From a virus, in IMG/VR virus record IMGVR_UViG_3300045988_132703: a stretch of 64,000 nucleotides of DNA; one strand, 5' to 3'. A program made the position numbers and the translations under genes. Positions 9,982-36,072 of this stretch are shown in pieces. Position 1 is the first letter of the stretch. Every line of letters starts with the position of its first letter. The notes beneath the pieces are model-generated. The model was not told the origin of the DNA. It searched no databases and was given only the letters and a program-made list of their open reading frames with translations.

Positions 9982-11054
9982 AATCTAGGTCTCCATTTAC
10001 CACTATCTCGAACTTGGCGAACATTTAAATTAGCCAATATATACAAATTACGGTCAGCTTGGATTGTTTGATTTATCAATTTGCATCGCTCTTTGCCAGC
10101 AATATGATAAACTTCATCCATAACTGTTTTATTAGAAGTAGGATTCAATTTATAAGTAAGAATATTTGAAAAAGCTCTCATTAAAATCTCATAAACAGTT
10201 GCTGCACCATCCCAATCATCTGGTTTTAAATCCACTTTTATAGGAATTTTTACATTGCGCGAGGCGCCATAAAAATAAATATTTAATGCAGCAATAAGAG
10301 CTTTTCGACTAGTAGGTTTCTCATTTAAAGGCACATGATAACCACAGTAGCAATTAAAACAATCTATATATTTCATTAATTTAGTAATAGGTATCCCATC
10401 ATTATGAACTAAAAATAACGCCTATCTACTATCAGTTATTGCTTTACTATTGGAAGAATAATAAACAAATAAATCTAAATCTTTTATCTAGCTGCTGTGT
10501 AAAAATAATAATTCATTTCCTCTTGAAGTAAAATAGTCAAATATTTCTTTTGCATAAGAGCTATTATAAAAATTATAATCATATAAAATGATTTTTTGAT
10601 TAGAATAATTTAGTTTAGTATAATCAATTAATAACTCATTTCCATTTGTTATTCTTAATAAAATAAAATCTTCGCTTAAAATTTTCTTAACTATCTAATT
10701 TTTAGTTCTAGTGGTAAATACATTTTCGTGAGTTTTTACAAAAGTAGAATAAAATGTCCTATCAGGAGGACTATGTTCAACTTCTTCTGGAAGTTTTACA
10801 TAATTACCAGTAAAGCCTCTACCTACCCATTGTAAATTACTTTGCAATAAAAAAGAAGAAGGAAAGTCCTTCTAAGAAAGACTTTCCCTAGAAAGATAAA
10901 GTATATCATATTTTTCACTATCTTCAAAAGATAGGACAAATTCTACTATATCTCCTCTTTTTTTATGATAATAGGACAATTTCATCAATTCAAGAGATGG
11001 ACAAAACTTCGCAGGATTTAAAAGAATATCCTAATCAAATATTCCAATATACAT
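9978..11054 (-). CDS. Hypothetical protein
   Basis: ATG overlaps the dnaE TAA (TAATG). 5 in-frame TAG. Extends track ORF 9978..10376. Confidence 0.5.
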
Positions 11055-12468
11055 TAGTCTGTCCTCTCTGTTCTTAAAGTTAAATGTCCTGTTGAATAAT
11101 CAATATCTGAAATCAACGTAATTGGTTTATAGGGTGAAGTTTTATATGCTTTAGGAATTGCACTATCTCCACGACGAATACACTGAATAATAAGTTTATT
11201 TCCTCTTGTAAACCATGATTTTTCAGTAACCGTTTTTTTACCAGTTACTTCGTCTTTAATAAAAGACTGTTTATCATATTTTACAAATTGAGGTTTATAA
11301 ATTTTAACTTTTACAACTCCATACTGAGTTAATAGAGTTACAATGTTTTTCAGTTTATTTTTTTCAATTACTGTTCCTGCAATATTATGCAATTTATAAA
11401 TTGGAATTTCTTTTCCCTCTTTTGAAGTAAATATCGTTTCTGGAACTGGATCTTCTGGAAGATTAAAGAAATTATCAATTTCCCTTTCTTCAAAATCTAC
11501 TCCATCAAGTTCATGCGCACCATCATAATAACCAACGCTGTCCATTTCCCATTTAGGAATGAAACCAGAACAATATTTATTCCAAATCTCGTCAATGATT
11601 GCTTTATTTAAACTCTCTAAAACTTTAGGCTTTTTCAACCACGGACGAATTTTATCCATGTAAGCCTTATATATTTTTTCCATACGAGTTTGTTCAATCA
11701 TTGCTCCACTCTCTCCAAACTTAACTAAGTCTGGATTAAAATGTGCATTGAAAAATTCAAGAGAATAATCGTCAAGCAAATAATAAAGACCAGATTTACA
11801 ATTCTTTTTTAAGAATTTATTAAAATTATAAACTGCTGCAACATCTTGGTATTTATCTGGAATAATACCATACTTAATCAAAGTTGGCATATTAGCGAGA
11901 GTTAATTTATTTTTCGTTTCTGCAATACTTTCAATATAATTACGAAGAAGACTTTCGCGCGGGATAGAAGAAATTTTATCAAATGCTCCACATTTAATTA
12001 AATTAATAACTTGAAGTTTTGTACTTTTAACTTTCTTCAAGAAATCTTCAAAAGAATTATATGGCCGATTATCAATAATTTCATTTGCATAATCTGCACT
12101 AACTCTTGTGATACCTTTTAATCCATAAATAATTTTATGGTGCGCAACATCTGGAACAAAAGTATAATTTGAAGCATTAATGTCTGGAAGTTCAACATCG
12201 ACACCAAAATTCTTCATCTTGCCAATGGCAGAGCTAATTTTACCATATTGAACAGTTTTTGAAGATTTCTTTTTAGTATCTTCTTCATCTTCTAATTCAT
12301 CTTCAATATCATTGCCTAAAGTATAATCTTCATCTTTTGGATTATCTTCAAGACCACCACTATCAACAATTAAACAAGCCGTATCCCAATAAATTGGGTC
12401 ATAAAAATATGCCAAATTTAATTCTTGAATTGCTACTGTTGAATAAGCTATGGTATGAATAATACTAA
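11054..12468 (-). CDS. dnaE: DNA polymerase III alpha (DnaE-type), exon 4
   Basis: The junction restores GYS|FSIIHTIAYS (consensus GYGFNKSHSAAY). The exon starts after an intron-terminal G. Confidence 0.8.
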
Positions 12469-12778
12469 CTTGCCAAACATAATTTCTTATGCCATTTAAA
12501 ATGTTTTGGTCTGGACTATACCATCATCTTTAAGAAAAGATGTCCTTATTATAGTCTCTGAACGTCTATCTCAATTTAATATATTTTCTATAAAAAATAT
12601 ACTATTGGATATTTCGCTGCGTTTGATTATCCAATCTTAAACGATTTTACCTTACCGTTCCCATTACTGAACGCCGCAAATTAATTACTTAATTTGTTTG
12701 GTTGTTTAAGCTCTAAGGAGTTCCCCGCAATTTAAAGGATTTTCGATATACATCACTGTATAAAGTCGCTTAATTTTA
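12469..12778 (-). mobile_element. Group I intron (family A), ORF-less, in dnaE
   Basis: The 5' exon ends in U and the intron ends in G. Core motifs are TTAAATTGCGGGGA (P4-like), GCGTTCAGTAATGGG and ATAGTC. Stops occur in all frames. Confidence 0.7.
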
Positions 12779-13427
12779 ACGAATAACCCATCTGCTTTTC
12801 GGCTTGAGACCAAATCCAATCAATAATGTCTTTAGAAGTTCCTAATTCTTTTCCCCGTTGATACAAATTTTCTTTTAAAGATGCAATTTCTTTAAATTTC
12901 TTTTTAGCAACAGTTTTACGGACTTTATTTGCTTCATCAACATTATAATTTGTAAATGGTAACATAACCGCGCGCATAAGAGATTCTTGGCTGTCCAATA
13001 CACCACCAAATTCCTTCATAAACTCATAAAGTTTATCTTTTTCTTCAGTAGTAGCATTAAGATTATAAATATCTCTTTTTAATTTTTCTGGATGCTCTTG
13101 GTATTCAACAAATTCCTCAACAGGAGTTTTTTGTCCTTTTTCTGGCATTAATCGCATCAAACTATTTGACTGCGCAAGAGTAAGCAAATTTTTTGGTTTA
13201 ATCTGTTTCGCTGTTTGCAATCCAACAGGAGTATCAAATTGGAACAAACTAATAATTTTATTGTCGCCAACAAGCTTCCACATTTCCGGATTATCGTAGT
13301 CAATAACATCTGGATTTAGATATTTCATATAAGTAGCTTTTAAAGAACCTTGCCACTCCATTAAACCATCATTAAGAAGTAATTCCATTGTGGTACGGAT
13401 TCTATCCAAACCATCAATAGTTAAGAA
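12779..13427 (-). CDS. dnaE: DnaE-type polymerase, exon 3
   Basis: The junction gives IKYD|FLTIDGLDRI (consensus KFDFLGL). Confidence 0.75.
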
Positions 13428-13852
13428 CCTTTATACCCTCGGTTTCCCGATATTTATTAGGGGAGTAGACTATCTCTTCATCCTATTGCTAGGAGTCTCG
13501 CACTTCGATTTAAAGGGATTTCACCTACCAGAGTTTCACTGGCCCTACTTCTATTGACATTTATAAAGCTGTCTAAAGAATAGTCGTTACACCTTCTAGA
13601 TTAATCTAGCTTGGCACGGTATTACCATATTATTTAACTTAGGCTTTTACCGTTAGCCGCAAAGCGACACCCTTAAATAAGGTTCACGAGATTATAATAT
13701 ATTATTACTAATATATCAGACATTTGATATATTTAGAAATTTTAGCATATCTTGAGTTTTTCTTTCTAGAGTAATTTCTGAGTTAGTTGAAAGTAAATAC
13801 TAAACAATATTTTTAGTTCTAATATACTAATCATCCATAAATATATACCTTT
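13428..13852 (-). mobile_element. Group I intron (family C), ORF-less, in dnaE
   Basis: Its ends are near-identical to intron 14339..15125: GAAGAGATAGTCTACTCCCCTAATAAATATCGGGAAACCGAGGGTA at the 3' side and GGCTAACGGT...GGTAATACCGTGCC at the 5' side. Confidence 0.7.
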
Positions 13853-14338
13853 ATCGTACTTAATATGACCCGCGTACTCTTCATCATGTAATTCCCATTG
13901 GCTACATTTTACTCCTTTAGGACTCTTCATCGTCGCGCCAAGTTCTGTAAATTTATCGTTTGTTAAGATAATACCAGAAGCATGAACTCCACGGCGACTA
14001 ATCAATCCCTCAATGTTTTTTGCAACATTCCAAATATCTTCATGTTTGCCCATTTCTGCAATAAATTGCGGAATAGGCTGATACCCCTTTTCTTCGTCTC
14101 CGTAATAACATTGCTGTAAACTTCTAACAAAACCGCGGTCAATAGGAATTAAAGAACTAAGAAAACTTCCTAATTCTGGTTCGTATCCTAAACCACGTGC
14201 AGCAGTTTGCAATGCTGCTTTTGAAGTTTCAGTGCCAAAAGTTGCGACACTCGTTAATTCTCCGCCAATGGACTCAAAGTAACGACGAACTGCTTCAATA
14301 AATCTTTCACGCTTGGATGCCTGAGAATCAATATCGAC
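13853..14338 (-). CDS. dnaE: DnaE-type polymerase, exon 2
   Basis: Begins VDIDSQASKRERF. The junction RAELAD|VDIDS matches the palm PDxDxD motif. Confidence 0.8.
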
Positions 14339-15125
14339 CTTTAATTACCCTCGGTTTCCCGATATTTATTAGGGGAATAGACTATCTCTTCATCCTATTT
14401 CTAGGAGTCCTGCGCTTCGAACGGTGATTAAATCTGCTCTACTACTTAGTCGTTACACCACATCTATCCTATAATCTTTACAATGTCCATATTTTCTTAA
14501 AGAAGATATGCTACAGTCAAAATATTCTTTAGCATATTCTGCGGCAGCTTTCTTATTGTCGAAGATTTTTATAATAGAGTTAGTTGAAATTTGAACTAAT
14601 GCACATTTTATCTAATTGCGTGCTGGTCCCATTGTAGAATAAGAATCATATAAATTATATTTTCTATCACACCATTCAAGATTTTCTAATTTATTATTGC
14701 TTCTATTCTTATCTTTATGATTTACCTCTGGTAAATTATCTGGATTAGGAATAAAAGCTTCTGCAACAAGTCTGTGAACAGCGTAATGTTTTGCTATATT
14801 ATTTTCACATAAAGAAATATATTGATAACCAGCCATATTTGTCCAAGCAGACATTTCTTTAGGCTTTTTATATTTATATGAAATAACTCTTCCATCATCG
14901 GTTATCCCATAATCTTCGTGATTTTTAATTCTTTTTTCCATTAATTTTCACCTCTAATCAAGAAGTAAAAATTTATCAACTTTCCTCTAAGAAAAATAGA
15001 TACGGCACGGTATTATCTTTTCGGATTTCCACCGTTAGCCATTTTAAATGACACGCGATAATCAATCGCTTCACAGGATTTTCTATTATGATATTACTAT
15101 CATAAGCGGACTATGATATAAGTTA
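14339..15125 (-). mobile_element. Group I intron (family C) carrying an HNH homing endonuclease, in dnaE
   Basis: U before the 5' splice site and G at the 3' end. It shares its core with 13428..13852, and the ORF sits in a peripheral loop. Confidence 0.75.
14453..14941 (-). CDS. HNH homing endonuclease (intron-encoded)
   Basis: VHRLVAEAFIPNP...VNHKDKNRSNNKLENLEW HNH motif. Continues through the TAG at 14612 to the TAA at 14453. Confidence 0.8.
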
Positions 15126-16512
15126 ATCCGCGAGTTCTGCACGTCCTCTTGAACAAAATCTCCAATAAGGAAGTGCAGTTGGACTTTTCAATGGATCGCG
15201 CTGAATAATGTCCATCAAATATGCGCTTAACATTGAACCTACTGAACCACGCCAAGGACCGACTAAAGAGTCACCATCTGTCCAAGCAATATCAATAACT
15301 TTACGAACGGTGATAAAATAAGCACTTAAACGCTCTTGAATTTTTTCGGATACAATCCACATTTCTTGAAGTTCTTCTTCAAGTCTATCAAGATGAATTT
15401 TGTCTAAACAATCTAATTCAAGCCCTTTTTGAATAATACTATAAAGAAAGAATTTATCTTCTTCATATTCACTATTCAAATACTTATTTAAATATTCTCG
15501 TTCGCCAATGATTTTTTGTGGCTCACAGTGGATTAAATGCCAATCAAGAGGAATACGAGGAACAATTTGCTTATATGCCAAATCATATTCTTCAATCATT
15601 GAACAAACTTTATTACTATTTTCAAAAATTTGAGTAATAAAATCGTCATCAAAATAATTAAGTTTCTCTCGAATTTCCTCTGCACTCATCATATAAGTGT
15701 AAGCGTAGAAATCATCAGTCTCTCTATCTCCATCGCCAGAATTAAGAAAACTCTTATGAATTTCTCTATCCTCTTGACGTAAATAGTGGCTATCAGTCGT
15801 AACTGTGATATTAAAATGATTCTTTTTTGCAAACTGCGCAGCTAAAGTATTAAAAGTAACTTGTTCTTTACTCAGCCCAGGCTGAATTTCAATAAAGAAA
15901 TTTTCTTTACCAAAAATTTGTTCACACCAATGGCAAAAATTTAATGCTTTTTCATACTGTTGATTTAAAATCAAATAATCGAAAAAACTACCTAAGCAAG
16001 CTGTTTGTGCAACCACATGTCCAGAATTATTTCCGATAATTTCTTCAATGTCTGAATAATAAGTTGGAACACGTTCCATAAATTGATAAAAACTTCTATT
16101 CCAAGCTCTTGAAGATAATTCTCGAAGTTGTTTATTTCCTATTTTATCTTTTGCTAATAAAATAAAGTGCCAAAATTTATCTTCACCTTTAATAAAGTTT
16201 TTTGCACTTAAATTATCACGGCAAAGATAAATCTCATTTCCTAATACAAGTTTAAAATTTTTAACTTGATTAGCCCATTTATCATTTGGTTCTGTCTCTA
16301 AAATCTTTTTCGCCTTTGATTTTAAAGATTTCATGTATTTTAAAGCTTTGATATAACCGGAAACACTCTCGTGGTCAGTGATTGCTACACCCGTTAAACC
16401 CAATTCCAAAGCATAATCAATTAATTTATCTTCTTTGATAATACAATCGAGCATACGAATGTTAGACCCACTAAGAATAATGGGTATGATTATGTCCACT
16501 AAAATATCCCAT
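15126..16512 (-). CDS. dnaE: DnaE-type polymerase, exon 1 (PHP domain), with a recoding site near codon 13
   Basis: The RBS AGGTGA serves ATG 16512 (frame A: MGYFSGHNHTHYS-TAG). The rest of the PHP domain (NIRMLDCII...AITDHES) is in the +1 frame (track ORF 15123..16499). Confidence 0.75.
16464..16476 (-). other. Candidate translational bypass / +1 frameshift site (UCU UAG UGG G UCU)
   Basis: Take-off UCU (16476-74) is followed by UAG, and a matching landing UCU (16466-64) lies 10 nt downstream. The hop gives HNHTHYS|NIRMLD. Confidence 0.45.
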
Positions 16513-16609: not shown

Positions 16610-18127
16610 TCAAAACATTGCCCTACCATTTTCAAGCTCATAATCTTCTATGATAACTTGAGGAGTATAATTACCCATAAATTGATTTAAATTCATTTTA
16701 CCATAAACGGTAATTGCACCAATAGAATAAGACTGAACTTTTTGTGCAAAATCGGCATCTTTAAATTTAACAAAAGCAATCCCATCTTTTTCAATTTTAA
16801 CGGAATCTTTATTTTTGCCCATGATAAACACATCATTTTGGGTAAAAAGAATTTTATTGACAATAACTTTAGGTTCTTCAACACCTTTGCCATAAACATT
16901 TTTTATGGCGTCCAAATCAACACAAATAGATTCAATATCGCCGCAGAAATTTCCATCAAATTCAAAATCTACAAGATAGCTGTTTTCACCCAAATTGATA
17001 TTAGCCAATTTCTTATTACAGTATTTAATAAATTTATTCAAATTCTTTTCTGCAATCCCAATACCTGCCGCGCTTTCATGTCCTTCAGCATATTCGACCA
17101 ATCCACTCTTAGTACAAAAATCCTTAAAATTTGCAAGAGGACTATTTGAATTAACCCTAAAAGAACCTTTAAATACATTATCATCTGCTAAGCGAATTAC
17201 AATAGCAGGACGGTTATACATTTGACAAAGCTTCATCGCAATTAAGCCAGTTAAATTAGGATTGACATATCTTGATTCGTCGTCATCAAGGGCAACTAAA
17301 AGAACTTTGTTTTCATCTAAACATTCTTTTTCAATTTTCCCACAAAGAAATTGGACACTTTGGTCAATCATTTTATTTTGATGATTACGTGCATTAGTGG
17401 CGATTCGTGCGGCTTTATCTGCAATGACTTCTGTATCGCCAGGCTTTGCCCCACGTTTGGTAGATGGTTCAGTATCATTCGGACCGCTAATAAATGCTTT
17501 AAATAAAGTTTCTTTTTCTTCCATTGTCCCTACACGAATTACCGCATTAACGAGTGGCGCGATGAAAAAAGAAACATCTGTAGGAGTAATATCATCAATA
17601 TTTCCTATCGAGAAAGATTGTTTTAAAGCAAATCGAGTCAAACCATAATTCTTTAAATTTGTTAAACCTTGACTGATAATATATCTTGTCTCAAGATTTC
17701 TTAAATCCATCATGTCACCAACGATACCCATTGCTGCGAGATCAAGGAAATTGTCAGCGTAATTATAACCATATTTTATATCAAAATATTTAATAAATTT
17801 ATAGACAACTCCAGCACCAGATAAATCTCGGTTAGGATATTTCCCTAATTGATTATTAATAACAATCGCATTTTCGCTTTCTGCTTCACACAAGTGATGG
17901 TCAAGAATAAGAATATCAAAACCTTGTTCTTTTAATATTTTATGTTCTTCATATTGATTAGAACCTGCATCTGGAATAACAATTAACTTCGCTTCATGAG
18001 GAACTTTATCTAACTCAACACCATGCTATTTCCCAGAGTGCATAGACCAAAGAATTTGAATATTCGGTTTAATCAATTTTAAATAATTATAAAGAATAGC
18101 AGAAGATGTAACTCCATCCTGATCAGA
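16610..18127 (-). CDS. recJ: RecJ-like DHH phosphoesterase / ssDNA exonuclease, exon 2
   Basis: SDQDGVTSSAIL, ILILDHH (DHH) and GHESAAG motifs. 1 in-frame TAG at 18028-26. Confidence 0.7.
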
Positions 18128-18449
18128 CATTACTACCCCGACTTTTGTCGTATTTATTCAGCAATTGCTGAAATTTATTATACTTTCTATTTAAATAAAA
18201 AGTATAAATTTTAAGGGATTAGACTATACAATCTCTTTCGAGTCGGTATTATAGTCGTTGAACGTTTCTCTTATTTATTACTAGACTTAGAGACTTCGCT
18301 GCGTTTGATTACCCAATCTTCAATGTTTTTACCTTACCGTTCCCGTTACTGAACGCCAATATAAAATTTCTTATATATCTTGGTAATTGAAGTTCTAAGG
18401 GACTCCCCGCAATTTAACCGATTTAACGTGGACTCAGACTTTTAGGTTA
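18128..18449 (-). mobile_element. Group I intron (family A), ORF-less, in the recJ-like gene
   Basis: Splits the DxDxDG motif (VVD|SDQDG). U/G boundary rule holds. TTAAATTGCGGGGAGTCCCTTAG core. Confidence 0.7.
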
Positions 18450-18671
18450 ATCCACTACGTCATAAATAATTGAATTAGCATCTAAATGCTTCTTTAAAAG
18501 TTCCGCGCCAGCATCTATATTCTTCAAAAGAAGTGGCGAATAGAGAACTTCTTTCGAAGGTTTCAAATATTGAATCATTTCATCGTGATTCAATCCTCTT
18601 GCACGCAATAAAGTTTCGACATAAGATTCATTTGGCAAATGATTAATTTTACTATTTAATACATATTTCAT
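18450..18671 (-). CDS. recJ: RecJ-like protein, exon 1
   Basis: The track ORF ends ...IIYDVVD just before the intron. Confidence 0.7.
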
Positions 18672-27861: not shown

Positions 27862-28149
27862 ACCAATTCCACTAGTGCCATTGACAATATTAAAATAGCC
27901 CTTTCCAGTTAAAACGGCAGGATATTGTTCTGTGTCATCGTAATTATCTCGCCATTCTTTAATGGTATTTTTTTCAATATCTTTGAATAGATATTCAGCG
28001 AGAGGGGACAAACGTGCAGAAGTATAACGAGGAGCAGACCAGTTTCCGCTTTCTGCGAGAGTACCGTAAGCGCCATCTACTTCAACCAAAGGATAGCGCA
28101 TAGAGAATGGTTGCCCCGCACGCATAATAACTCCAACACAAGATGAGTC
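27862..28149 (-). CDS. Topoisomerase subunit A, exon 2
   Basis: DSSCVGVIMRAGQPFSMRYPLVEVDG matches GDSAVYDTIVRMAQPFSLRY. Confidence 0.75.
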
Positions 28150-28378
28150 CAAAATGTTATCCTAAAAGCTTTTTATCTTTTAGTTCTTACAATTTCTTGT
28201 AAGTTCAGCATATCTTTTTAGCTCGCGCTATCGGGGCCTCGTGGAGAGATTATATCTTTTCACTCTCTATGCGTTGCGGCTGGCTATATTAAATATAGCC
28301 TTCACCTCTGATTAGCTTGACTTAAAGTTTTAGCCTTCCAGATTTTTTCCCCAATTTAACCACGGCAATTCAATCTTT
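28150..28378 (-). mobile_element. Group I intron (singleton family E), ORF-less
   Basis: Splits HPHG|D (here YIHG|DSS). Contains GGTTAAATTGGGGAAAA and AAGATATAATC core-like elements. U/G boundaries hold. Confidence 0.55.
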
Positions 28379-28588
28379 ACCGTGGATATACATTCTCATT
28401 GCTGAGCCTACTGCTTTCAAAGTCTTTTTAAAAGGCTTATCAGCAGTAAATTTATCTGTTTTCATACAGTAGAAAATTTGCCGAGCGGACGGTTTCAAAA
28501 AATCTCGCGCATCCACGAGAGCGCGAGACTGCAAAACCGCACCAGAATATTGAGCAAAACTTTCTTCAATAATCGGTGTTAGTTCCAT
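28379..28588 (-). CDS. Topoisomerase subunit A, exon 1
   Basis: N-terminal GyrA-like region ending ...RMYIHG. Confidence 0.7.
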
Positions 28589-28589: not shown

Positions 28590-28976
28590 TTACTCCTTTA
28601 TTTCTGAAAAGTCAATTTTACTAAATACAAAATCTTTACGAGGTTGAACATCCTCGCCCATCAAATCATAAAGCATTTGAATAGAATCATCATCTGAGAC
28701 AAGAATATCCATTCGTTGATTCTCAGGATTAAACATAGATTCTTTTGCTTTTGCTGCACTCAATGCGCCCAAGCCTTTTTCACGACTAACATCGCCTTTA
28801 ATTTGCGCTCGAGCTTTGTTAAACTCTTCATCGCTGTAAAAATAAGTGTGTTTCTTACCATTTGTAACAATGTAAAGAGGAGAGCGTAACCAGCATAGTC
28901 TATGCTCTTGAATGAACTCAGGAGCAAGATATTGTAGTGCAGACATAATAAGCAAACCAATATGATAACCATCGGA
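28590..28976 (-). CDS. Type IIA topoisomerase subunit B (GyrB/ParE-like), exon 4
   Basis: The junction SDAD|SDGYHIGLL matches TDADVDGSHI. Confidence 0.75.
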   Translation of the reverse strand, partial: SDGYHIGLLIMSALQYLAPEFIQEHRLCWLRSPLYIVTNGKKHTYFYSDEEFNKARAQIKGDVSREKGLGALSAAKAKESMFNPENQRMDILVSDDDSIQMLYDLMGEDVQPRKDFVFSKIDFSEIKE

Positions 28977-29229
28977 CATTTATACCCTAGCTTTCGCTAT
29001 ATTTCAAGGGATTAGACTATACAATCTCAGTAGAGTCAGTATTATAGTCGTTGAACGTTTTTCCTTTTAAGGAAACTTCGCTGCGCTTGATTACCCAATC
29101 TTCAATGATATTACTGTACCGTTCCCGTTACTGAACGCCACCAAAATAATTACTTACTTGGTTTAGTTATTGAAGCTCTAAGGGACTTCCCGCAATTTAA
29201 CTGATTTAGTGCGGACTCAACTTTTGGTT
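28977..29229 (-). mobile_element. Group I intron (family A), ORF-less
   Basis: Near-identical blocks to the recJ intron, e.g. GAT|TAACC(A/T)AAAGT...GAGTCC...TTAAATTGCGGG. Confidence 0.7.
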
Positions 29230-29380
29230 AATCCGCATCCGAACAAATAGCAATTCGTCCATAACGTAGTTTAGAAGAATTGTATTTTCCGGGGATAATA
29301 TTCATCGCACTTAGGAGCAATTTAATTTCTTCATTTTCAAAAATTTTATCCTCGCTATTGGATAGGCAATTAATAATTTT
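29230..29380 (-). CDS. Topoisomerase subunit B, exon 3 (50-codon micro-exon containing a +1 frame change)
   Basis: KIINCLSNSEDKIF (frame 0) followed by ENEEIKLLLSAMNIIPGKYNSSKLRYGRIAICSDAD (+1). Together they align residue-for-residue with [27 protein letters not shown]. Confidence 0.65.
29336..29344 (-). other. Candidate +1 frameshift site AUU UUU UGA
   Basis: T6 run (29343-38 on the minus strand). The frame-0 TGA comes immediately after UUU, and tRNA-Phe can re-pair on UUU after a +1 slip. Confidence 0.45.
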
Positions 29381-29612
29381 CGCGTAATCCATTATTTCTA
29401 ATGGTGCTGACTATCTTTTAATAGAAAATTCTATTACAGCCATTTCGAACTATGTATCAATAATAGTCCTACGAGCCGATTAAGGCATCTAGTCGATACA
29501 GGTATTTTATTCCCACGGGATTGCCTTGCCTGCATAGGTTTAGGTTTCCCCGTTAGCCGCAATGAGCGACCCCACTGATAAGTGGCAAAGCTGTATTAGG
29601 GCAATTTTGTTT
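29381..29612 (-). mobile_element. Group I intron (family B), ORF-less
   Basis: Splits PL(R/K)G|K. The 3' end GGATTACGCG parallels the dnaB intron's GGATTAAACG. Confidence 0.6.
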
Positions 29613-30596
29613 ACCCCTAATGGCCAAAATTCCGTAATGCTTTTCATCTCGCGCAATGGCCATAGCTGCCGCAGCAGAATTTCCTTCTACAATTAAGAGA
29701 GTTGAATCTTGCCCAAGATATTCTGCATCAGACAATTTATCAGAAGAAAAAACTTTTCTCTTTTGATTCTTCTCAATATCTTTAGTTGCATTTAGAACAG
29801 CTGTTCTTGCTTTTTCTGCTGCTTTTTCTGCTTTTTCTTCCTTGGTAAGAAAATCTTCAATTTTCTTTTCTTCATTGGGATATTGTAAGCAGAACTTCTC
29901 AAATCCTTCGCTAAAAGCTTTACTTGCAAGACTGCGCAATTCTGGATTGTTAATCTTCGTTTTTGTTTGATTAGCGAAAGAAGGATTAACAACTTTACAA
30001 CTAACTGCATAAACCAAACCAGTTCGTGCAAGCTCGCCAGTTAAACTTTTAATTTTCTTTTGAAGAGTTTTAGTAATTGAAGTTTTTAGACCAGTGATAG
30101 GAGTACCACCTTCAGCATTAGCAACACCATTTGTGAAACAATAAAAATGTTCATTGCGCGCTTTCGTCCAAACACAAGCAATTTCAACTGAATTTGTTCC
30201 ATCGCTTAAAAAGTAAGAAATCGGATTTTCATGAACTTTATTTGCAGCTTTTTGCATAACCAAATCCATAAGACCATTTTCACTTTTATAGGTAATACTT
30301 TGTGCTGGAGAGACAGTTTCATCTCGAAGTTCAAAAGTCAATCCTTTGGTTAGAAAACTTAAATTTTCACAAGTCTTACATAAATGCTCAAATTTAATTT
30401 CAATAGGCTCAAGATTAAAGACTTGCGCATCTGGCTTATATTTTACAAAAGTACCGTTGGGCAAATTTTTATCATTATTCACTTCGGTATAATCAATCAT
30501 ATTTCCGCGTTCAAAACAAATTGAAGCTACTCGATTATCACGAACTGACACAACTGAAAATTCTTCAGATGAAAGGCAAGTAGCTTTCGCTCCAAT
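29613..30596 (-). CDS. Topoisomerase subunit B, exon 2
   Basis: IGAKATCLSS (junction GLNG|IGAK matches GLHGVGAS). Toprim EGNSAA. Confidence 0.8.
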
Positions 30597-31504
30597 CTTA
30601 AATATTCAACAAGAGTCGTTAATTCCTGCCCGCGACTTTACTCGCTGCTCATAGTTTCCTATGAGAATAGACTATATCTTTTTCAATCCCATTTCGACTC
30701 ACTTGAGTCTACTCTACTAATTATCTCTTGATAATTTATACCTAATAATTTATTCCAATCTGGACATTTATTTTCAAGAAGATATTTTTCGATAGTCGTT
30801 GAACTTTCATCTATAATATAACCAAATTCTCTCATTTTGTTAATTCTAAAAAGTATTGCTTGGCGTAGCGCTTCGTCTGCGCCGTATTTTCCAATTGAAA
30901 AACTTTTTTGTTTTTGCAATTTTCTTTTGTCATTATATCTGGTATCATTTTCAAAAGTAGACCAGCGAACCCGGATTCTTGGAGTTCCTCTAGCCCCTTT
31001 TTCTATGCTAATGCCATTAAAATTAAAAGAATTTGATTTAATTGGTTTAGAGTTCTTTTTATTTTCAGAACAGGTAACTAATCTTAAATTGGACTTTTGA
31101 TTATTTAATCCATTGCCATCTATGTGATCAACTATGATTTTAGGATTGGTTACTTTCATAATATAACGATGTGCTTTTCCATAAGTATCATGCTGAGCAT
31201 AATCAGTTCTTGAATTATGCAATTCTTTTGGTACCAAATACCAACCACTCTTAGGAAAAGTTTCATAATCCTCATCGTCTAAAAGAATCTCTTTTCCGCA
31301 TTTCATTAAAAATTTTTTCATCTATAACCTCTTTATAGGGTTATATTATAGATGCTTAGCTGCGTTAGGTTATCCAATCTTTAACGATTTTACTATACCG
31401 TTCCCGTTACTGAACGCCATTTAATTATTACTAATTAAATTTAGTTGTTAAAGCTCTAAGGAATTTCCCGCAATTAAAGATTTTTTAGAACAGCTATGAA
31501 GTCA
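30597..31504 (-). mobile_element. Group I intron (family A) carrying an HNH-AP2 endonuclease
   Basis: Family A 5' core, ORF, then an AAGATATAGTCTA 3' core. U/G boundaries hold. Confidence 0.7.
30683..31321 (-). CDS. HNH endonuclease with AP2-like DNA-binding domain (intron-encoded)
   Basis: VDHIDGNGLNNQKSNLRLVTCSENKKN, followed by an AP2-like GISIEK...RIRVRW segment. No TAG. Confidence 0.75.
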   Translation of the reverse strand: MKKFLMKCGKEILLDDEDYETFPKSGWYLVPKELHNSRTDYAQHDTYGKAHRYIMKVTNPKIIVDHIDGNGLNNQKSNLRLVTCSENKKNSKPIKSNSFNFNGISIEKGARGTPRIRVRWSTFENDTRYNDKRKLQKQKSFSIGKYGADEALRQAILFRINKMREFGYIIDESSTTIEKYLLENKCPDWNKLLGINYQEIISRVDSSESKWD

Positions 31505-31843
31505 ACCGTTCAAACCAACTGCAAACTGATAATCTTTTGATGTAAATTTACCGCCAGTATGCGCATGAGAATAAATAGCTTCAAGAACATTTTCGCCATT
31601 TTCTCTTGTTCCAAAAGGAACTCCACGCCCATAATCTCTTACAGAAATGTAATTATCAGGATAAAGTACAATTTCAATTTTATTACCAAATCCCATAATA
31701 AATTCGTCAATTGAATTAGAAATAATTTCTTGGATGCCGTTGTACACGCCTTCCATATCGTTGGAACCAAGATACATCGGGATTCTCATACGAACAGCTT
31801 CCTTAAATTGAAGCGTTTCGATAGAGTTTATATCATAACTCAT
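31505..31843 (-). CDS. Topoisomerase subunit B, exon 1 (GHKL ATPase N-terminus)
   Basis: EIISNSIDE, VRDYGRGVP, GGKF...GLNG. Confidence 0.8.
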
Positions 31844-32464: not shown

Positions 32465-32501
32465 TGATTAAATTCCTCAAACTAAAATTTTTTAAAATGA
32501 A

Positions 32502-32933
32502 TTATAATTCATCTAAATAGCCCGCTGCTTGTGCCGTTCTACTTCTTTCAATTTGCTCTAAGTGCACTGCCGCGAACAAATCAGAATAATCTTTGCTAAA
32601 ACGTAATTTAGTCAAAAGTTTTAATCCACTCTTTTGACGGAAAATATTTGAATCAGCCTGCTTAATATCACCATCAAAGAAAATCCGTGTGTTTTCACCG
32701 CAACGAGCAACCAATAACTTCACATGATCTTCTGTTAAATTTTGTGCTTCATTAACAAGAATAATCGAATTATCAAAACTGCGCCCACGAGCAATAGAAA
32801 TGGGTAGCAATTCTAATTGTCCTTTTTCGTACATCTGGATTACTTCCTATTGACTAATTATATCACATAATGTACCAATGTATGGCAAAATCTTATCGAA
32901 CATTTCCGCAACTACTTCATCTTTCGATAAAGG
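32502..32933 (-). CDS. phoH: PIN-PhoH ATPase, exon 3
   Basis: ARGRSF...ILVNEAQN...FFDGDIKQAD. 1 in-frame TAG. Confidence 0.7.
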
Positions 32934-34169
32934 CTAGACTATATCTTTAAGTTTACAAAGAGGTTAATAAAAACTAATATTTATCATATTTTCTCTGAAG
33001 AAAACAAGTGCTGTTAGAATAGAGATAATTTAAAATTGAAAGAATCTAAATTCTCCCACGCCAATGACAGTTATAAGCATTGCCTTTTTCAATTTTATTA
33101 TGAAAATTTTTACCAATAGCTTTATCTATAGCTAATTGGAAATCTTGAACAAAACTTTCATAATATGCGCAAAAGCCGATTGAAGCGTCATTTTGATTTA
33201 CAATTGAACAAATTCCATCTCCATCATATAATCCACGAAGATAATGATGGAATAGTTTTTCTGGAATTTTATTTGATAAGTGAGTTAAAGAATAAGTTTT
33301 ATTAGGAATTATACCATATTGGGCTAAATCCTACGCCATTTTCGCAGAAGCCCATTCGATAGTAAAACATTCTTTATTGGCTCTTTTATCTTCTTGAATT
33401 TTGCAATCTAAACAAAGAATCTTTTTAATCCATTCTAAAGTTGCTCGATCATCAACTTGTAAACTAATTCCAATTGTAAAACTATTACGACTTTTTAAAT
33501 TTTTAACATAACCATCAGTAGTTAATAATCCCAAAAGATAAGCTTTTTCTTCAGTGTCAATTGTTTCAAAAAAATCTTCAATAATATTTTTATTAACTTT
33601 TTTCCAAGTGACTTTGTCTATTTGATTTTCTTTTAATACTCGATTAATTAAAGTAATATCACAATTATATTTTCTAGCAATTTCGTTAATTCCAGAATGG
33701 CAACGATACATATTTATTATATCTTGCTATTGTTCACTAGTAAAAAATTTTTTTCTAAGCCCTCTTTTAATTTCAATTCCCATAGATTTTAATGCTTTAG
33801 AAATTGTATCTGGTTTTTTATGATATTCTTTTGATAATTGCTAAATAGAAAATCCTTTTTGATATTTATCAATTAATTCTTCTAAAAGAACGTTATTTAT
33901 CATATAAATCACCTCAAAAAAGAAGTAATTTATCTAATAAGTCACTCTAAACTTACTCTGCATTTCGCTTTCGCTACTCCCGGCCAAGGGATAGTCGTTG
34001 AACCTTTTCCTCTAAAGGAACTTGGCTGCTGATTGCCCAATCTAGTTTATTTTCAAACATTCACAATTATTGTTTCCAATTTTGTTGTAGTTAAACTAGC
34101 TCTAAGGGGTTTCCAGCAATTAACAGAGTTTTTCAATACATATCGCTATGTAAGGGAGCTATTTAATTA
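32934..34169 (-). mobile_element. Group I intron (family D) with a LAGLIDADG endonuclease
   Basis: GGT|TAAATAGCTCCCTTA at the 5' end, as in 34293..35364. TTGCTGGAAACCCCTTAG block and GATATAGTCTAG 3' end. Confidence 0.65.
32953..33903 (-). CDS. LAGLIDADG homing endonuclease (double-motif) with N-terminal HTH
   Basis: LLGLLTTDGY and LRGLYDGDG motifs. 5 in-frame TAG join the track ORF 33331..33711 to flanking coding sequence. Confidence 0.75.
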
Positions 34170-34292
34170 ACCCGGCATAGTTCCTAATTCCATAGAATTT
34201 TCATTCTAACTATTATTAGGAACATAAACAATTTTATCTATATTTCCTTTCTATAATTCTTGTAAGGCGTAAGAAGTTAATAGGAAACTTTT
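34170..34292 (-). CDS. phoH: PIN-PhoH ATPase, exon 2 (41-codon micro-exon)
   Basis: The junction GSFGTG|KSFLL completes Walker A. Ends ELGTMPG (consensus LGFLPG). 2 in-frame TAG. Confidence 0.65.
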
Positions 34293-35364
34293 CCTTTATA
34301 CCGCTGTTTTCACAGTACTTTAACACCAATTCAATAGTCGGAGTAGACTATATCTTCTTCGTTATTATCCTCGAACAATATGCTTGCCTTTTCATATTTT
34401 CGAGCTAAAGATATTTTACTATCTTTATATAAAACAGTAGCCAACTGTTTTACTAAATGTTTTTTATTTATCCTGAAATGATAAGCTGTACCATAATTTT
34501 CAATTATAGTAGTAACAGGCTCGTCTAAAAATTGATTGCATAAATTTCTAAAATCTTCACAAATACTTTTATGGTAAGAACAGAAATCTATTTTATAACT
34601 TTTATCTTTCTATTGGTAAATACTTCCATCTCCATCTAACAATCCTCTCATGAAAGGTATTATAAAATTTGAAGGAATATTATTTGGAAGATGCTTTGTT
34701 TTATAAGTTTTTTGAGGAATAATCCCATATTTAGCTAAGTCATTGGCCATTTTTTGACTTCTAAATCTTAGAACTGCACATTCTTTATTTTCTCTTTTGT
34801 CATAAGTTAATTTTGAGTGCATATTTATTTCAGTTCTAAGCTTTTCTAAAATATCAATATCGGATATTTTTAAAGAAATGATGATTGACGGAAATCTTTT
34901 TCCATCTGAGTCTGGAACTATACTTCCATCAGTGAAAAATAATCCTAAAAAATAAGCTTTTTCTTCACTGTTGATATTTTCAAAATAGTCTTCTTTTAAA
35001 AGACGATTTTTTGATAGACCCTTTCTTTTAATAGGTATATTATATTTTAATAAAACATTTTTGATAGCTTCCGTACGACAATGGTAATTTTGAGCTAAAA
35101 AACTTATTGTCATACCTTCTTGATTATATTTTTCACAAATTATTTTTTCTGTATTTAAATCAAATTGTCTCATTTTTCTCCTGGATTGGCAAAACGAAGT
35201 GCGGCATTTCATAGTTTAAAAACCACTATTATTATTTTAGTCGTTGAACCTTCTTATTGGCTAGATAAGCTTGGCTGCTGATTGCCCTCGTCTTTACGTT
35301 AGGGGTTTCCAGCAATTAACCGCATTATTCAATATATATTACTACATAAGGGAGCTATTATTTA
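34293..35364 (-). mobile_element. Group I intron (family D) with a LAGLIDADG endonuclease
   Basis: Interrupts Walker A. Shares core blocks with 32934..34169. Confidence 0.65.
34331..35212 (-). CDS. LAGLIDADG homing endonuclease
   Basis: FLGLFFTDGS and MRGLLDGDGS motifs. Continues through the TAG at 34612-10 to the TGA at 34331. Confidence 0.75.
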
Positions 35365-36072
35365 ACCCGTGCCAAAGCTACCTCCAGCATAAATTATATT
35401 AGCTTTACTATAAAGGGCGTCTATTAAACAAGCCTATTCAATATTTCGAGCCTAAATTTTATTACCATAACTTATTTCAATAGATTCTCTTTTTATTGGT
35501 TTAATTAAATGATTTCTATAAACAAGAACATCTTTTACATTATCATCCTCAATAATAACTATATACTAATTTTCAAATAAAGTCAAATTAGTAAAATCAT
35601 TAATATATAATTCACTAATTAATTCATTATCTTTAGGAATATATAATCTTAATATTCCTGTATAAATTTCATTATTTTTAATATAAGATTCATACTATAC
35701 TTGTAAAGCTATACATTTAACTTGTAAATTAATATCATTGGTGATTAAAGTATAATTATTATCTTTACAGAGGTATAATAATTGATTATCAATAGAAAGA
35801 TTATTATAATTAGAAGTATCAATAAAATGAATTTGTGTATCTCTTTCTTCTATCTTTTCTTGGTACTTCTTTTCTTCGTCTTTCTCTGTTGGTTCGTCTT
35901 TTTCAAGCAAATCTCGCAATTTTCTTAGAACAATCCGTGCTTTCTTTGCACGCTCGCCCTGTGTAATTTTAATACGATCAAGTTCTTCAAGGACTGACCA
36001 AGCAATTCCAATATTCTCGTGAGTGACAATATCTGGATAATCAATTAAAACGTTGGTATCAATTATAAACAT
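35365..36072 (-). CDS. phoH: PIN-PhoH ATPase, exon 1 (PIN domain + Walker A start)
   Basis: AAGGAGG RBS before ATG 36072 (MFIIDTNVLID). 4 in-frame TAG. Ends GGSFGTG. Confidence 0.7.

What the first reader, a model, noticed from the sequence alone, without database searches (positions are those of the whole stretch)
11054..36072. Twelve group I introns in six replication genes within about 25 kb
dnaE (3), recJ-like (1), dnaB (1), topoisomerase A (2), topoisomerase B (3) and PIN-PhoH (2) are each split by non-coding blocks of 229-1236 nt. Removing each block restores a canonical motif exactly: PDxDxD, KFDFLGL and GYxFNKSH in DnaE; DxDxDG in RecJ; HPHGD and GIAVGMAT in GyrA; GLHGVG, PLxGK and DADxDG in GyrB; Walker A and LGxLPG in PhoH. 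At every junction I could place the 5' exon end on U and the intron end on G. All 12 blocks contain an (A)GAKATAGTC-like element, and most contain a TTAAATTGCGGGRA-like element. These resemble the J8/7-P7 and P4 cores of known group I ribozymes as I recall them from the Tetrahymena intron. Four introns carry homing endonuclease ORFs. This density is far above the handful of introns typical of intron-containing phages.
Basis: partly seen in the sequence, partly recalled or inferred. Interest (0 to 1): 0.9.

Follow-up and report, generated by a model that had tools for sequence, protein, structure and literature searches.

The report
Twelve group I introns, phage replication genes
Six DNA-replication genes of an uncultured, TAG-recoded phage are interrupted by twelve mobile self-splicing (group I) introns that near-identical relatives mostly lack, which is an unusually dense example of a well-known kind of selfish element.

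Summary
Twelve minus-strand blocks of 229-1263 nt (6377 nt in total) interrupt dnaE (3), recJ-like (1), dnaB (1), gyrA-like (2), gyrB-like (3) and PIN-PhoH (2).

- **Exact insertions.** Each block is exactly absent from at least one IMG/VR relative (89-96% DNA, 96-99% protein identity). One relative has none of the twelve.
- **Splice sites.** Every 5' exon ends in U and every block ends in G. Removing the blocks gives six ORFs with no TAA or TGA stops.
- **Ribozyme evidence.** Rfam RF00028 passes its curated threshold for only 2 blocks. Nine more match below it, and dnaE intron 1 only weakly. Covariation supports P2-P9, including the P3/P7 pseudoknot and P7.1/P7.2, in the worst-scoring class.
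- **Mobility.** Four introns carry HNH or LAGLIDADG ORFs. Three ORF-less ones have ORF-bearing versions in relatives. Exon divergence rises toward the insertion sites, as co-conversion would give.
- **Not an assembly artefact.** An independent assembly carries nine introns entire and parts of two more on one contig.

"Exact" canonical motifs was overstated. The density claim needs tempering, because Jug and crAss-like phages also carry many. The phage also reads TAG as Gln. This is a new member of a known kind, of moderate interest.

The parts
11054..16499 (-). dnaE (Pol III alpha-like) gene. Four exons: 16499..15126, 14338..13853, 13427..12779, 12468..11054.
   Evidence: The spliced ORF is 1307 aa with no stops. 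Pfam PHP, DNA_pol3_alpha, finger and HHH_6 domains run across the junctions. It is collinear with the uninterrupted DnaE of Enterocloster phage PMBT24 and with intron-less relatives.
14339..15125 (-). dnaE intron 1 (787 nt), carrying an HNH endonuclease ORF at 14941..14453 with one in-frame TAG.
   Evidence: Absent from 6 of 9 close relatives and 99% identical in the other 3. P1 is GCGGAU/GUCCGC. Pfam HNH_3 matches the ORF. RF00028 gives only 15.4 bits, on the 3' part. The last 82 nt are 91% identical to dnaE_i2.
13428..13852 (-). dnaE intron 2 (425 nt, no ORF), with an AU-rich insertion of about 116 nt in the P1 loop.
   Evidence: RF00028 38.2 bits, E=1.5e-6. Absent from 4 of 9 close relatives; the other 5 carry a different intron at or near the site. 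The exon-side P1 is only 3 bp and is closed around a long hairpin.
12469..12778 (-). dnaE intron 3 (310 nt, no ORF). It is the only intron that is not at a codon boundary.
   Evidence: RF00028 42.9 bits, E=5.9e-8. Three relatives carry the same ribozyme plus a 312-aa LAGLIDADG ORF, 1133-1135 nt in all.
16610..18671 (-). recJ-like DHH exonuclease gene. Exons 18671..18450 and 18127..16610.
   Evidence: The spliced ORF is 579 aa. Pfam DHH, DHHA1 and RecJ_OB match it.
18128..18449 (-). recJ intron (322 nt, no ORF).
   Evidence: RF00028 44.2 bits, E=2.4e-8. P1 is GUGGAU/GUCCAC. Absent from all 9 close relatives. It is 82% identical over 246 nt to topB_i3.
19732..21758 (-). dnaB-like helicase gene. 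Exons 21758..20664 and 20424..19732.
   Evidence: The spliced ORF is 595 aa. Pfam DnaB_C spans the junction.
20425..20663 (-). dnaB intron (239 nt, no ORF).
   Evidence: Missed by the wide Rfam scans, but scores RF00028 28.7 bits, E=1.1e-5, over the full model when scanned alone. P1 is GAGGAU/GUCCUC. It belongs to the class with covariation support. Absent from all 8 close relatives whose loci cover the site.
25669..28588 (-). Type IIA topoisomerase A subunit (GyrA/ParC-like) gene. Exons 28588..28379, 28149..27862 and 27525..25669.
   Evidence: The spliced ORF is 784 aa. Pfam DNA_topoisoIV matches at E=6.5e-103 across both junctions.
28150..28378 (-). topA intron 1 (229 nt, no ORF).
   Evidence: RF00028 23.7 bits, E=0.034. 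P1 is CCACGGU/GCCGUGG. RNAalifold on 4 homologues finds P3, P4, P5, P6 and P9 with 16 compensated pairs. Relative L020 has the same ribozyme plus a 273-aa LAGLIDADG ORF.
27526..27861 (-). topA intron 2 (336 nt, no ORF).
   Evidence: RF00028 15.5-18.2 bits. It belongs to the class with covariation support. Relatives hold the same ribozyme with a full GIY-YIG ORF (1017 nt) or a truncated one (685 nt).
28590..31843 (-). Type IIA topoisomerase B subunit (GyrB/ParE-like) gene. Exons 31843..31505, 30596..29613, 29380..29231 and 28976..28590.
   Evidence: The spliced ORF is 619 aa. Pfam HATPase_c, DNA_gyraseB, Toprim and DNA_gyraseB_C match it.
30597..31504 (-). topB intron 1 (908 nt), carrying an HNH-AP2 endonuclease ORF at 31321..30683.
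   Evidence: RF00028 hits only the 3' end (23.8 bits). The 5' part is 76-81% identical to recJ_i1, topB_i3 and dnaE_i3. P1 is GAACGGU/GCUGUUC. Pfam HNH_3 matches the ORF. Absent from all 8 close relatives.
29381..29612 (-). topB intron 2 (232 nt, no ORF).
   Evidence: RF00028 36.3 bits over the full model. Covariation supports P2-P9. Absent from all 8 close relatives.
28977..29230 (-). topB intron 3 (254 nt, no ORF).
   Evidence: RF00028 42.5 bits, E=8e-8. P1 is UGCGGAU/GUCCGCA. Two relatives share it, one has an empty site, and five hold a different 1033-nt intron with a GIY-YIG ORF at the same site.
32502..36099 (-). PIN-PhoH gene. Exons 36099..35365, 34292..34170 and 32906..32502, with 7 in-frame TAG codons.
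   Evidence: The spliced ORF is 420 aa. Pfam PIN_4 and PhoH match, and PhoH spans both junctions. The TAG positions align mostly with Gln in relatives.
34293..35364 (-). phoH intron 1 (1072 nt), carrying a LAGLIDADG ORF at 35212..34331 with one in-frame TAG.
   Evidence: RF00028 56.5 bits, above the gathering score. Pfam LAGLIDADG_3 matches the ORF. Absent from all 8 close relatives.
32907..34169 (-). phoH intron 2 (1263 nt), carrying a LAGLIDADG ORF from about 33903 to about 32953 with several in-frame TAGs.
   Evidence: RF00028 59.3 bits, above the gathering score, plus a 3' hit of 29.2 bits. Pfam LAGLIDADG_3 matches the ORF. It is 80-85% identical to phoH_i1 in both ribozyme and ORF. Absent from all 8 close relatives.

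Best explanation
The twelve blocks are mobile group I introns. The class checked by covariation has the P7.1/P7.2 helices typical of subgroup IA, as in phage T4, SPO1 and Twort introns.

**Splicing (inferred).** Each replication gene is transcribed with its introns. In the pre-mRNA the last 3-7 exon bases pair with an internal guide sequence 10-17 nt into the intron, forming P1 with a U.G pair at the splice site. The folded core (P3-P9) binds guanosine and carries out two transesterifications that end at the terminal G. The exons are joined exactly, and this restores the catalytic motifs of DnaE, RecJ, DnaB, both topoisomerase subunits and PhoH.

**Spread (inferred).** At the DNA level the introns spread by homing. 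During co-infection an intron-encoded HNH, LAGLIDADG or GIY-YIG endonuclease cuts the intron-less allele. Repair copies the intron together with some flanking exon sequence. Afterwards the endonuclease ORF decays. That accounts for the eight ORF-less introns here, which still make their sites uncuttable.

**What is shown.** Precise insertions, U/G ends, the P1 helices, the covarying core, the endonuclease domains, presence/absence polymorphism and flank linkage are all shown by tool results. Splicing itself and endonuclease activity are inferred.
For: **Precise, polymorphic insertions.** Each block is exactly missing in at least one relative of 89-96% DNA identity. Contig 138203 has 0 of 12. 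Six of the sites are occupied only in this genome.

**Splice-site nucleotides.** All 12 have U at the exon end and G at the intron end.

**P1.** Exon-side helices are 3, 3, 4, 4, 4, 5, 6, 6, 6, 7, 7 and 7 bp. Six of 12 reach 6 bp, against 6% of control positions.

**RF00028.** Two blocks pass the gathering score (59.3 and 56.5 bits). Eight more blocks hit below it in the 28-kb scan, all on the minus strand. dnaB scores 28.7 bits when scanned alone. The alignments place P1, P3, P4-P6, GACUA, P8, AUAGUC and a GAAA-capped P9.

**Covariation.** For 15 class-B introns, 90.7% of cells are paired, against 32-48% when the partners are slid. Thirty-one pairs show compensatory change, and 0 of 500 shuffles reach the observed values. 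P7 (the pseudoknot), P7.1 and P7.2 are 97-100% paired. The topA_i1 family has 16 compensated pairs.

**Coding restored.** The spliced ORFs have no stops, and Pfam domains span the junctions.

**Endonucleases.** Four HE ORFs are present here. Relatives carry the same ribozymes with LAGLIDADG or GIY-YIG ORFs, including a 1017 > 685 > 336 nt decay series.

**Co-conversion signature.** Exon identity to intron-less relatives falls from about 95.6% more than 800 nt away to 89-90% within 25 nt of the sites. At dnaE_i1 the 5' flank has 0 mismatches in the three intron-plus relatives and 4-5 in the intron-less ones. At topA_i2 and topB_i3 at least one intron-plus relative likewise has fewer mismatches than any intron-less one.

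**Independent assembly.** Logan contigs from run ERR414483 are 100% identical to the window. One of them carries nine introns entire and parts of two more.
Against: - No RNA data are available, so splicing is not shown for any intron.
- Ten of the 12 blocks score below Rfam's curated threshold, and dnaE_i1 has only a weak partial hit.
- dnaE_i2 has only a 3-bp exon-side P1, formed around an insertion of about 116 nt. topA_i2 also has only 3 exon-side bp. These two could splice poorly or need a protein cofactor.
- Eight introns have no endonuclease, so present-day mobility of those eight is not demonstrated.
Confidence: 0.9

Rival explanations
1. Some of the twelve are decayed, splicing-dead relics. 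The interrupted genes, at least dnaE through intron 2, would then be pseudogenes in a defective or helper-dependent phage genome.
For: dnaE_i2 and topA_i2 have only 3 exon-side P1 base pairs. dnaE_i2 has a large insertion in the P1 loop. Eight introns have lost their endonuclease ORF. Several score low against RF00028.
Against: All exons are intact, with no frameshift and no TAA/TGA stop in 13 kb of spliced coding sequence. The weak-P1 introns keep fully paired cores. The guide sequence of dnaE_i2 sits at the same position as in its paralogue dnaE_i1. The genome was assembled at enough depth to give long contigs in an independent run.
Confidence: 0.08
2. The count of twelve is an assembly artefact. 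A mixture of strains, each with a few introns, was collapsed into one consensus path that picked up every insertion.
For: Close relatives in IMG/VR carry 0-6 of the 12 in different combinations. The window comes from an uncultured source.
Against: A separate Logan assembly of run ERR414483 is 100% identical to the window. One 20,959-nt contig runs from inside phoH_i1 to the last bases of dnaE_i1. It breaks only inside repeats shared between paralogous introns, not at exon-intron borders. Six introns are found in no sampled relative, so they cannot have been borrowed from those strains.
Confidence: 0.04
3. The blocks are another kind of intervening element: inteins, group II introns, insertion sequences, or translational bypass as in T4 gene 60.
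For: Topoisomerase and polymerase genes of phages are also known targets of inteins and of the T4 gene 60 bypass (own knowledge).
Against: The ORF-less blocks carry stops in all frames and have no Hint domain. No group II family appears in the Rfam scans. No terminal inverted repeats or transposase genes are present. At 229-1263 nt the blocks are far longer than a bypass gap. Positive group I evidence exists for every block except dnaE_i1, whose link rests on the 91% identity of its last 82 nt to dnaE_i2, its P1 helix and a weak 3' hit.
Confidence: 0.01

Closest known systems
Phage T4 td, nrdB and nrdD (sunY) introns: subgroup IA2 group I introns with homing endonucleases such as I-TevI (own knowledge; reviewed in PMC3073962)
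   Same: These are self-splicing group I introns in phage DNA and nucleotide metabolism genes. Endonuclease ORFs sit in peripheral loops. Sites are polymorphic among relatives. P7.1/P7.2 helices are present; the class-B introns here have both.
   Different: T4 has three introns in about 169 kb. This window has twelve in 25 kb, in different genes (dnaE, recJ, dnaB, gyrA/B-like, phoH). Most have lost their ORF. The ORFs that remain are mostly written with in-frame TAG codons.
Introns of Staphylococcus phage Twort and the SPO1/SPbeta/Bastillevirinae phages of Firmicutes, including three introns in Twort orf142 (PMC11878797; own knowledge for Landthaler and Shub 1999)
   Same: Several introns can sit in one gene. 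HNH, LAGLIDADG and GIY-YIG endonucleases occur. There is direct sequence kinship: a 58-nt stretch shared by dnaE_i1 and dnaE_i2 near their 3' ends is 88-97% identical to sequences in Enterococcus, Bacillus (SPbeta group), Listeria and Staphylococcus phages.
   Different: Those phages carry one to a handful of introns per genome; the Bastillevirinae table lists about one per invaded genome. They use the standard genetic code. The present phage is only about 38% identical in DnaE to any cultured phage.
Intron-rich metagenomic phages: Jug phages, averaging 18.5 group I introns per 360-402 kb genome (PMC12880540), and zeta crAss-like phages with 'numerous' introns and inteins plus alternative codes (PMC12386605)
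   Same: These are uncultured phages whose essential genes are fragmented by many group I introns and endonucleases. In the crAss-like case this is combined with stop-codon recoding.
   Different: The lineage and probable host differ. DnaE is closest to phages of Enterocloster and Bacillus, which suggests a Firmicutes host. Local density is about ten times higher, at 1 per 2 kb against about 1 per 20 kb. The introns are confined to the replication module. Near-isogenic intron-free relatives are available for comparison.

Membership tests
Group I intron (Rfam RF00028) | The 5' exon ends in U, which forms a U.G wobble pair in helix P1 with an internal guide sequence near the intron's 5' end. | tested here: met
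   12 of 12 exons end in U. A G-initiated complementary stretch lies 10-17 nt into the intron in 11 of 12. Exon-side lengths are 3-7 bp, with 6 of 12 at 6 bp or more against 6% of controls. P1 is weak (3 bp) in topA_i2 and dnaE_i2.
Group I intron (Rfam RF00028) | The intron's last nucleotide is G (omega-G). | tested here: met
   12 of 12, with borders fixed independently by intron-less alleles.
Group I intron (Rfam RF00028) | The covariance-model score reaches the family's curated gathering threshold of 50 bits. | tested here: inconclusive
   Two of 12 pass, at 59.3 and 56.5 bits. Nine more score 15.5-44 bits; eight of these have E between 2e-8 and 0.03, and topA_i2 reaches only E=0.12 at best. 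dnaE_i1 gives only 15.4 bits on its 3' part because the ORF splits the core. The threshold is a detection cut-off, not a structural criterion.
Group I intron (Rfam RF00028) | A conserved core of helices P3-P9 with the P3/P7 pseudoknot, kept by compensatory changes. | tested here: met
   Class B (dnaB, topB_i2, topA_i2 plus 12 homologues): 90.7% paired, 31 compensated pairs, and P7 100% paired with one compensated pair. P3 and P8 reach only about 63% in that alignment, where the alignment is poor. topA_i1 family: P3, P4, P5, P6 and P9 with 16 compensated pairs. The other classes rest on RF00028 alignments only.
Group I intron (Rfam RF00028) | Removal joins the exons into an uninterrupted functional gene. 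| tested here: met
   Six spliced ORFs have no TAA/TGA stops, and Pfam domains span all 12 junctions. The junctions are identical to those of intron-less relatives.
Group I intron (Rfam RF00028) | Guanosine-dependent self-splicing of the transcript. | not testable with these tools
   This needs in vitro transcription with GTP and Mg2+, or RNA-seq junction reads.
Subgroup IA (phage-type) group I introns | Extra helices P7.1 and P7.2 between P7 and P3'. | tested here: met
   Both helices are 97-100% paired, and every pair is compensated, in the class-B alignment. Not examined for the other classes.
Homing (endonuclease-driven intron mobility) | The intron encodes a homing endonuclease of a known family. 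| tested here: met
   Four of 12 in the window: HNH_3 twice and LAGLIDADG_3 twice. Three ORF-less ribozymes (topA_i1, topA_i2, dnaE_i3) carry LAGLIDADG or GIY-YIG-like ORFs in relatives. Five introns have no ORF in any copy seen.
Homing (endonuclease-driven intron mobility) | Presence/absence polymorphism at the same site among close relatives, with co-conversion of flanking exon sequence. | tested here: met
   Occupancy is 0-6 of 12 in nine relatives. Exon identity falls from 95.6% to 89% toward the sites. Flank variants travel with intron presence.
Homing (endonuclease-driven intron mobility) | The endonuclease cleaves the intron-less target site. | not testable with these tools
   This needs expressed protein and intron-less target DNA.
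Intein | An in-frame protein-coding insertion with a Hint splicing domain. | tested here: not met
   Eight blocks have no ORF of 70 aa or more, even with TAG read as sense. No Hint or intein domain appears in Pfam.
Group II intron | A domain V / six-domain RNA and usually a reverse-transcriptase ORF. | tested here: not met
   No group II family appears among the Rfam matches at gathering score or at E up to 10. The intron ORFs have no RT domain.

The most novel reading that the evidence does not exclude
This strain is 'intron-saturated'. It holds an intron at all twelve of these sites, while close relatives hold 0-6 and wider relatives occupy each site in 0-21% of cases outside dnaE. Only one further site is known in the family, TopB near aa 557, and it is empty here.

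That pattern may not be neutral accumulation. Filled sites cannot be cut, so a fully loaded genome would be immune to every endonuclease carried by co-infecting relatives, while its own four endonucleases attack them. The intron load would then be a weapon and a shield in phage-phage competition.

In addition, paralogous introns seem to have jumped between different genes by recognising the same short motif-coding sequence:
- recJ GTGGAT|TCTGAT against gyrB-like GCGGAT|TCCGAT, with 82% identical ribozymes.
- The two phoH introns, both inserted after CGGGT.

This would be a natural record of ectopic transposition guided by the 4-6 nt guide sequence (reverse splicing) or by relaxed endonuclease specificity.
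Probability: 0.3. Interest if true: 0.65.

Novelty: new member of a known kind. Interest (0 to 1): 0.5.

Why it matters
The element type, its mechanism and its preference for conserved motifs of DNA-metabolism genes are textbook, so no new category is involved.

The value lies in the system:
- Twelve introns of several ribozyme lineages occupy one 25-kb replication module, taking up 25% of the sequence.
- Natural near-isogenic relatives carry from 0 to 6 of them.
- All stages of the homing cycle are visible: a full ORF, a truncated ORF, an ORF-less ribozyme and an empty site.
- The exons show measurable co-conversion tracts.
- Paralogous introns sit at look-alike target sites in different genes.

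Together this is a compact data set for studying how introns invade, persist and decay in phage populations, and for testing whether intron load affects competition between co-infecting phages.

There is also a practical lesson. Introns and TAG-to-Gln recoding together make standard gene callers shred this region, so annotation pipelines need both corrections. Wide Rfam scans at the curated threshold also miss most of these introns.

Tried and rejected
- **Rfam at the gathering threshold** over the whole window found only 2 introns. The relaxed 28-kb scan still missed dnaB and dnaE_i1. Focused scans recovered dnaB but gave only a weak partial hit for dnaE_i1.
- **Megablast of the region against annotated phages** gave only 58-nt intron-core matches and no close genome.
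- **Two splice junctions I first guessed from motif logic were wrong.** For topB_i2 I guessed 'RGK|IMDYAK', and for topA_i2 'GIG|SGMVAAS'. Intron-less alleles corrected them to RGK|IINCLS and GIG|VAASSS.
- **Search for further introns outside 11-36 kb.** No RF00028 hit at E up to 1. No similarity to any of the 12 introns elsewhere. No unexplained non-coding gaps once TAG is read as sense.
- **A stronger P1 for dnaE_i2.** I found only 3 exon-side bp, around a long hairpin.
- **Pfam on the 232-aa indel ORF** (37261-37959) gave nothing.
- **A literature search for the run accession** found nothing, so the habitat is unknown.
- **Not attempted:** I did not build a custom covariance model, because alignment A1 has 443 columns, over the 400-column limit. 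I did not run covariation tests for the recJ/topB_i3/dnaE_i3/topB_i1, phoH or dnaE_i1/i2 classes.

Full report
**What was checked first**

A whole-window Rfam scan at curated thresholds gave two Intron_gpI (RF00028) hits, at 33875-34178 and 35199-35370, both on the minus strand, plus three tRNAs. A relaxed scan of 10-38 kb gave twelve RF00028 hits, all on the minus strand. There was nothing in the dnaB block or in dnaE block 1. Scanned alone, the dnaB block scores 28.7 bits (E=1.1e-5) over the full model. dnaE block 1 gives only a 15.4-bit hit on its 3' part.

**Exact borders from relatives**

The region has no close match among annotated phages. The nearest cultured DnaE proteins are about 38% identical and come from Enterocloster phages and the SPbeta group. 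Enterocloster phage PMBT24 has uninterrupted DnaB, RecJ and DnaE genes in the same order, and tblastn against the window is collinear across every gap.

IMG/VR holds near-identical relatives, 96-99% identical in protein and 89-96% in DNA, on contigs of up to 179 kb. DNA alignment shows that each of the twelve blocks is exactly absent from at least one of them. Combined with the U/G rule, this fixes the borders listed under 'parts'. The twelve blocks total 6377 nt, about a quarter of the 25-kb module.

All twelve 5' exons end in T and all twelve blocks end in G. The sites follow GGT six times, GAT five times and CGT once, and eleven of twelve lie on a codon boundary.

Two junctions I had first guessed from motif logic were wrong, and the intron-less alleles corrected them. 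With the blocks removed, all six genes read through without TAA or TGA stops, and Pfam domains span every junction. The restored motifs are recognisable but diverged (ADVDID, YIHGD, GIGVAAS and so on), so 'restores a canonical motif exactly' is overstated.

**Ribozyme evidence**

- *P1.* A guide sequence beginning with the G that pairs with the terminal exon U lies 10-17 nt into eleven introns. Exon-side helices reach 6-7 bp in six of them, against 6% of control positions.
- *dnaE intron 2.* This is the exception. Its guide sequence sits at the position homologous to that of its paralogue dnaE_i1. About 116 nt of AU-rich hairpin has been inserted in the P1 loop, which leaves only 3 exon-side pairs.
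- *Rfam alignments.* These place P1, P3, P4-P6, the GACUA strand of P7, P8, the AUAGUC strand of P7 and a GAAA-capped P9.
- *Class B covariation.* For the class that scores worst in Rfam (dnaB, topB_i2, topA_i2), I collected twelve ORF-stripped homologues from related loci and counted pairs on a hand-mapped structure. 90.7% of cells are paired, against 32-48% when partners are slid. Thirty-one of 50 pairs carry compensatory changes, and 0 of 500 shuffles reach the observed values. P2, P4, P5, P6, P7 (the pseudoknot partner of P3), P7.1, P7.2 and P9 are 96-100% paired. P3 and P8 reach only about 63%, because the alignment is poor there. P7.1 and P7.2 point to subgroup IA.
- *topA_i1.* For this intron and three homologues, RNAalifold on its own finds P3, P4, P5, P6 and P9 with 16 compensated pairs. 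Its P7 is GCAUA/UAUGC instead of GACUA/UAGUC, which explains why ATAGTC is missing from this one block.

**Mobility evidence**

Occupancy of the twelve sites in nine close relatives is 0 (contig 138203), 1, 1, 1, 3, 4, 4 and 6. The ninth contig covers only recJ and dnaE and holds one intron. Six sites (both phoH, topB_i1, topB_i2, dnaB, recJ) are filled only in this genome. In up to 78 more distant relatives each site is filled in 0-21% of cases outside dnaE. One further TopB site, near aa 557, is used by three relatives and is empty here.

Four introns here carry endonuclease ORFs: HNH in dnaE_i1 and topB_i1, and LAGLIDADG in both phoH introns. Three ORF-less introns have the same ribozyme with an ORF in relatives:
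- topA_i1 with a LAGLIDADG ORF.
- dnaE_i3 with a LAGLIDADG ORF.
- topA_i2 with a full and a truncated GIY-YIG ORF, giving a 1017 > 685 > 336 nt series.

At the topB_i3 and dnaE_i2 sites, other relatives hold unrelated introns.

Exon identity to intron-less relatives drops steadily, from about 95.6% beyond 800 nt to 89-90% within 25 nt of the sites, even though these are conserved motif codons. Flank variants go with intron presence: at dnaE_i1 the 5' flank has 0 mismatches in the three intron-plus relatives and 4-5 in the intron-less ones, and topA_i2 and topB_i3 show the same direction less cleanly. This is the signature expected of homing with co-conversion. The 123-nt phoH exon between the two introns is only 77-83% identical to relatives.

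**Paralogy**

- recJ_i1 and topB_i3 are 82% identical over 246 nt and sit in near-identical targets, GTGGAT|TCTGAT and GCGGAT|TCCGAT.
- The two phoH introns are 80-85% identical in both ribozyme and ORF, and both follow CGGGT.
- dnaE_i1 and dnaE_i2 share their last 82 nt at 91% identity.
- dnaB and topB_i2 are 69% identical over 240 nt.

Some of the twelve therefore arose by spread within this genome or lineage to look-alike sites. The mechanism, reverse splicing or relaxed endonuclease specificity, is an inference.

**Is the count real?**

Exact-protein look-ups found Logan assemblies of run ERR414483 that are 100% identical to the window. One contig ends 87 nt into phoH_i1. Another, of 20,959 nt, runs from inside phoH_i1 almost to the end of dnaE_i1. 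It carries nine introns entire and parts of two others. It breaks only inside sequence repeated between paralogous introns. A strain-mix chimera is therefore unlikely.

**Scope**

No other intron was found in the window. There are no RF00028 hits at E up to 1 outside 11-36 kb. Nothing elsewhere resembles any of the twelve introns. Once TAG is read as sense, the rest of the window is tightly packed coding sequence.

**Genetic code**

Many genes carry in-frame TAG, and the eight gene ends I checked use TAA or TGA. TAG positions in PhoH, RecJ and DnaB align most often with Gln in relatives; for example, PhoH position 222 is Q in 22 of 22 distant relatives. The phage therefore reads TAG as Gln, as described for several gut phage clades (bioRxiv 10.1101/2021.08.26.457843). 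Three of the four endonuclease ORFs contain TAG.

This matters for the finding, because table-11 ORF lists cut exons and HE ORFs short. For example, phoH exon 1 runs through four TAGs up to the Walker A motif.

**Comparison with what is known**

Group I introns with homing endonucleases in phage DNA-metabolism genes are classical, as in T4, SPO1, SPbeta and Twort (reviewed in PMC3073962). Surveys list over 100 phage introns, usually one to a few per genome (PMC11878797). Metagenomic Jug phages average 18.5 per 360-402 kb genome, with splicing confirmed for many by metatranscriptomes (PMC12880540). Zeta crAss-like phages combine numerous introns with alternative codes (PMC12386605).

The present case is the same kind of element in a different lineage, probably one that infects Firmicutes. 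Its local density is about ten times higher (1 per 2 kb), and an unusually complete set of comparison genomes is available.

**Verdict**

This is a new member of a known kind. Interest is moderate (0.5): the case is striking in degree and useful as a natural system, but not new in principle.

Noticed in passing
whole window; e.g. 35697, 35568, 35454, 35439 (phoH exon 1), ~18028 (recJ), ~20747 (dnaB), 32374-32372 (methyltransferase-like gene): In-frame TAG codons occur in most long ORFs on both strands. 37 of 58 TAA/TGA-bounded ORFs of 150 codons or more contain TAG, with 124 TAGs in all. The eight gene ends I checked use TAA or TGA. TAG positions align mostly with Gln in relatives. The phage evidently reads TAG as Gln (code 15-like). 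No suppressor tRNA lies in the window.
   Followed up: partly
63792-63847 (+), directly after tRNA-Gln(ttg) at 63721-63791: A sub-threshold match to the HDV-like ribozyme family RF02682 (30.2 bits, gathering score 44, E=0.05) starts at the base after a tRNA. HDV-like 'theta' ribozymes next to tRNAs are described for recoded gut phages (PMC10879173), which fits the TAG recoding seen here.
   Followed up: no
37261-37959 (-): A 232-aa ORF with 4 in-frame TAGs fills a segment of about 690 nt. The segment is present in 2 of 8 close relatives and absent from 6. It lies between the ligase gene and the next gene. The ORF has no Pfam match. It may be a free-standing mobile (endonuclease-like) gene.
   Followed up: partly
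13737-13852 (-), the first ~116 nt of dnaE intron 2: An AU-rich stretch that folds into its own long hairpin sits inside the P1 loop. It is absent from the paralogous dnaE intron 1. Only 3 exon-side P1 pairs remain. Its origin is unknown, and I found no similarity to anything else fetched.
   Followed up: partly
34170-34292 (-), phoH exon 2: This 123-nt exon between the two phoH introns is only 77-83% identical to close relatives, against about 94% nearby. It carries two TAG codons where all eight relatives have CAA or CAG. It looks like a tract co-converted from a more divergent donor that also uses TAG as Gln.
   Followed up: partly
L015-L092 (related loci); TopB near aa 557 of the spliced protein: Three more distant relatives have insertions of about 950-1070 nt at a thirteenth TopB site that is empty in the window. 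The TopB aa-491 site (topB_i3) is the family's hot spot, filled in 16 of 77 loci.
   Followed up: no
window ~32463-32500, against L015 7958-8971: Close relatives carry about 1 kb between phoH and the methyltransferase-like gene that the window lacks. The methyltransferase region itself (31962-32479) is replaced by different sequence in two relatives.
   Followed up: no
L093 and L094 (Logan contigs of run ERR414483): Short-read contigs of this genome end inside intron sequence that is repeated between paralogous introns (phoH_i1/i2 and dnaE_i1/i2). Intron paralogy therefore fragments assemblies of this phage.
   Followed up: yes
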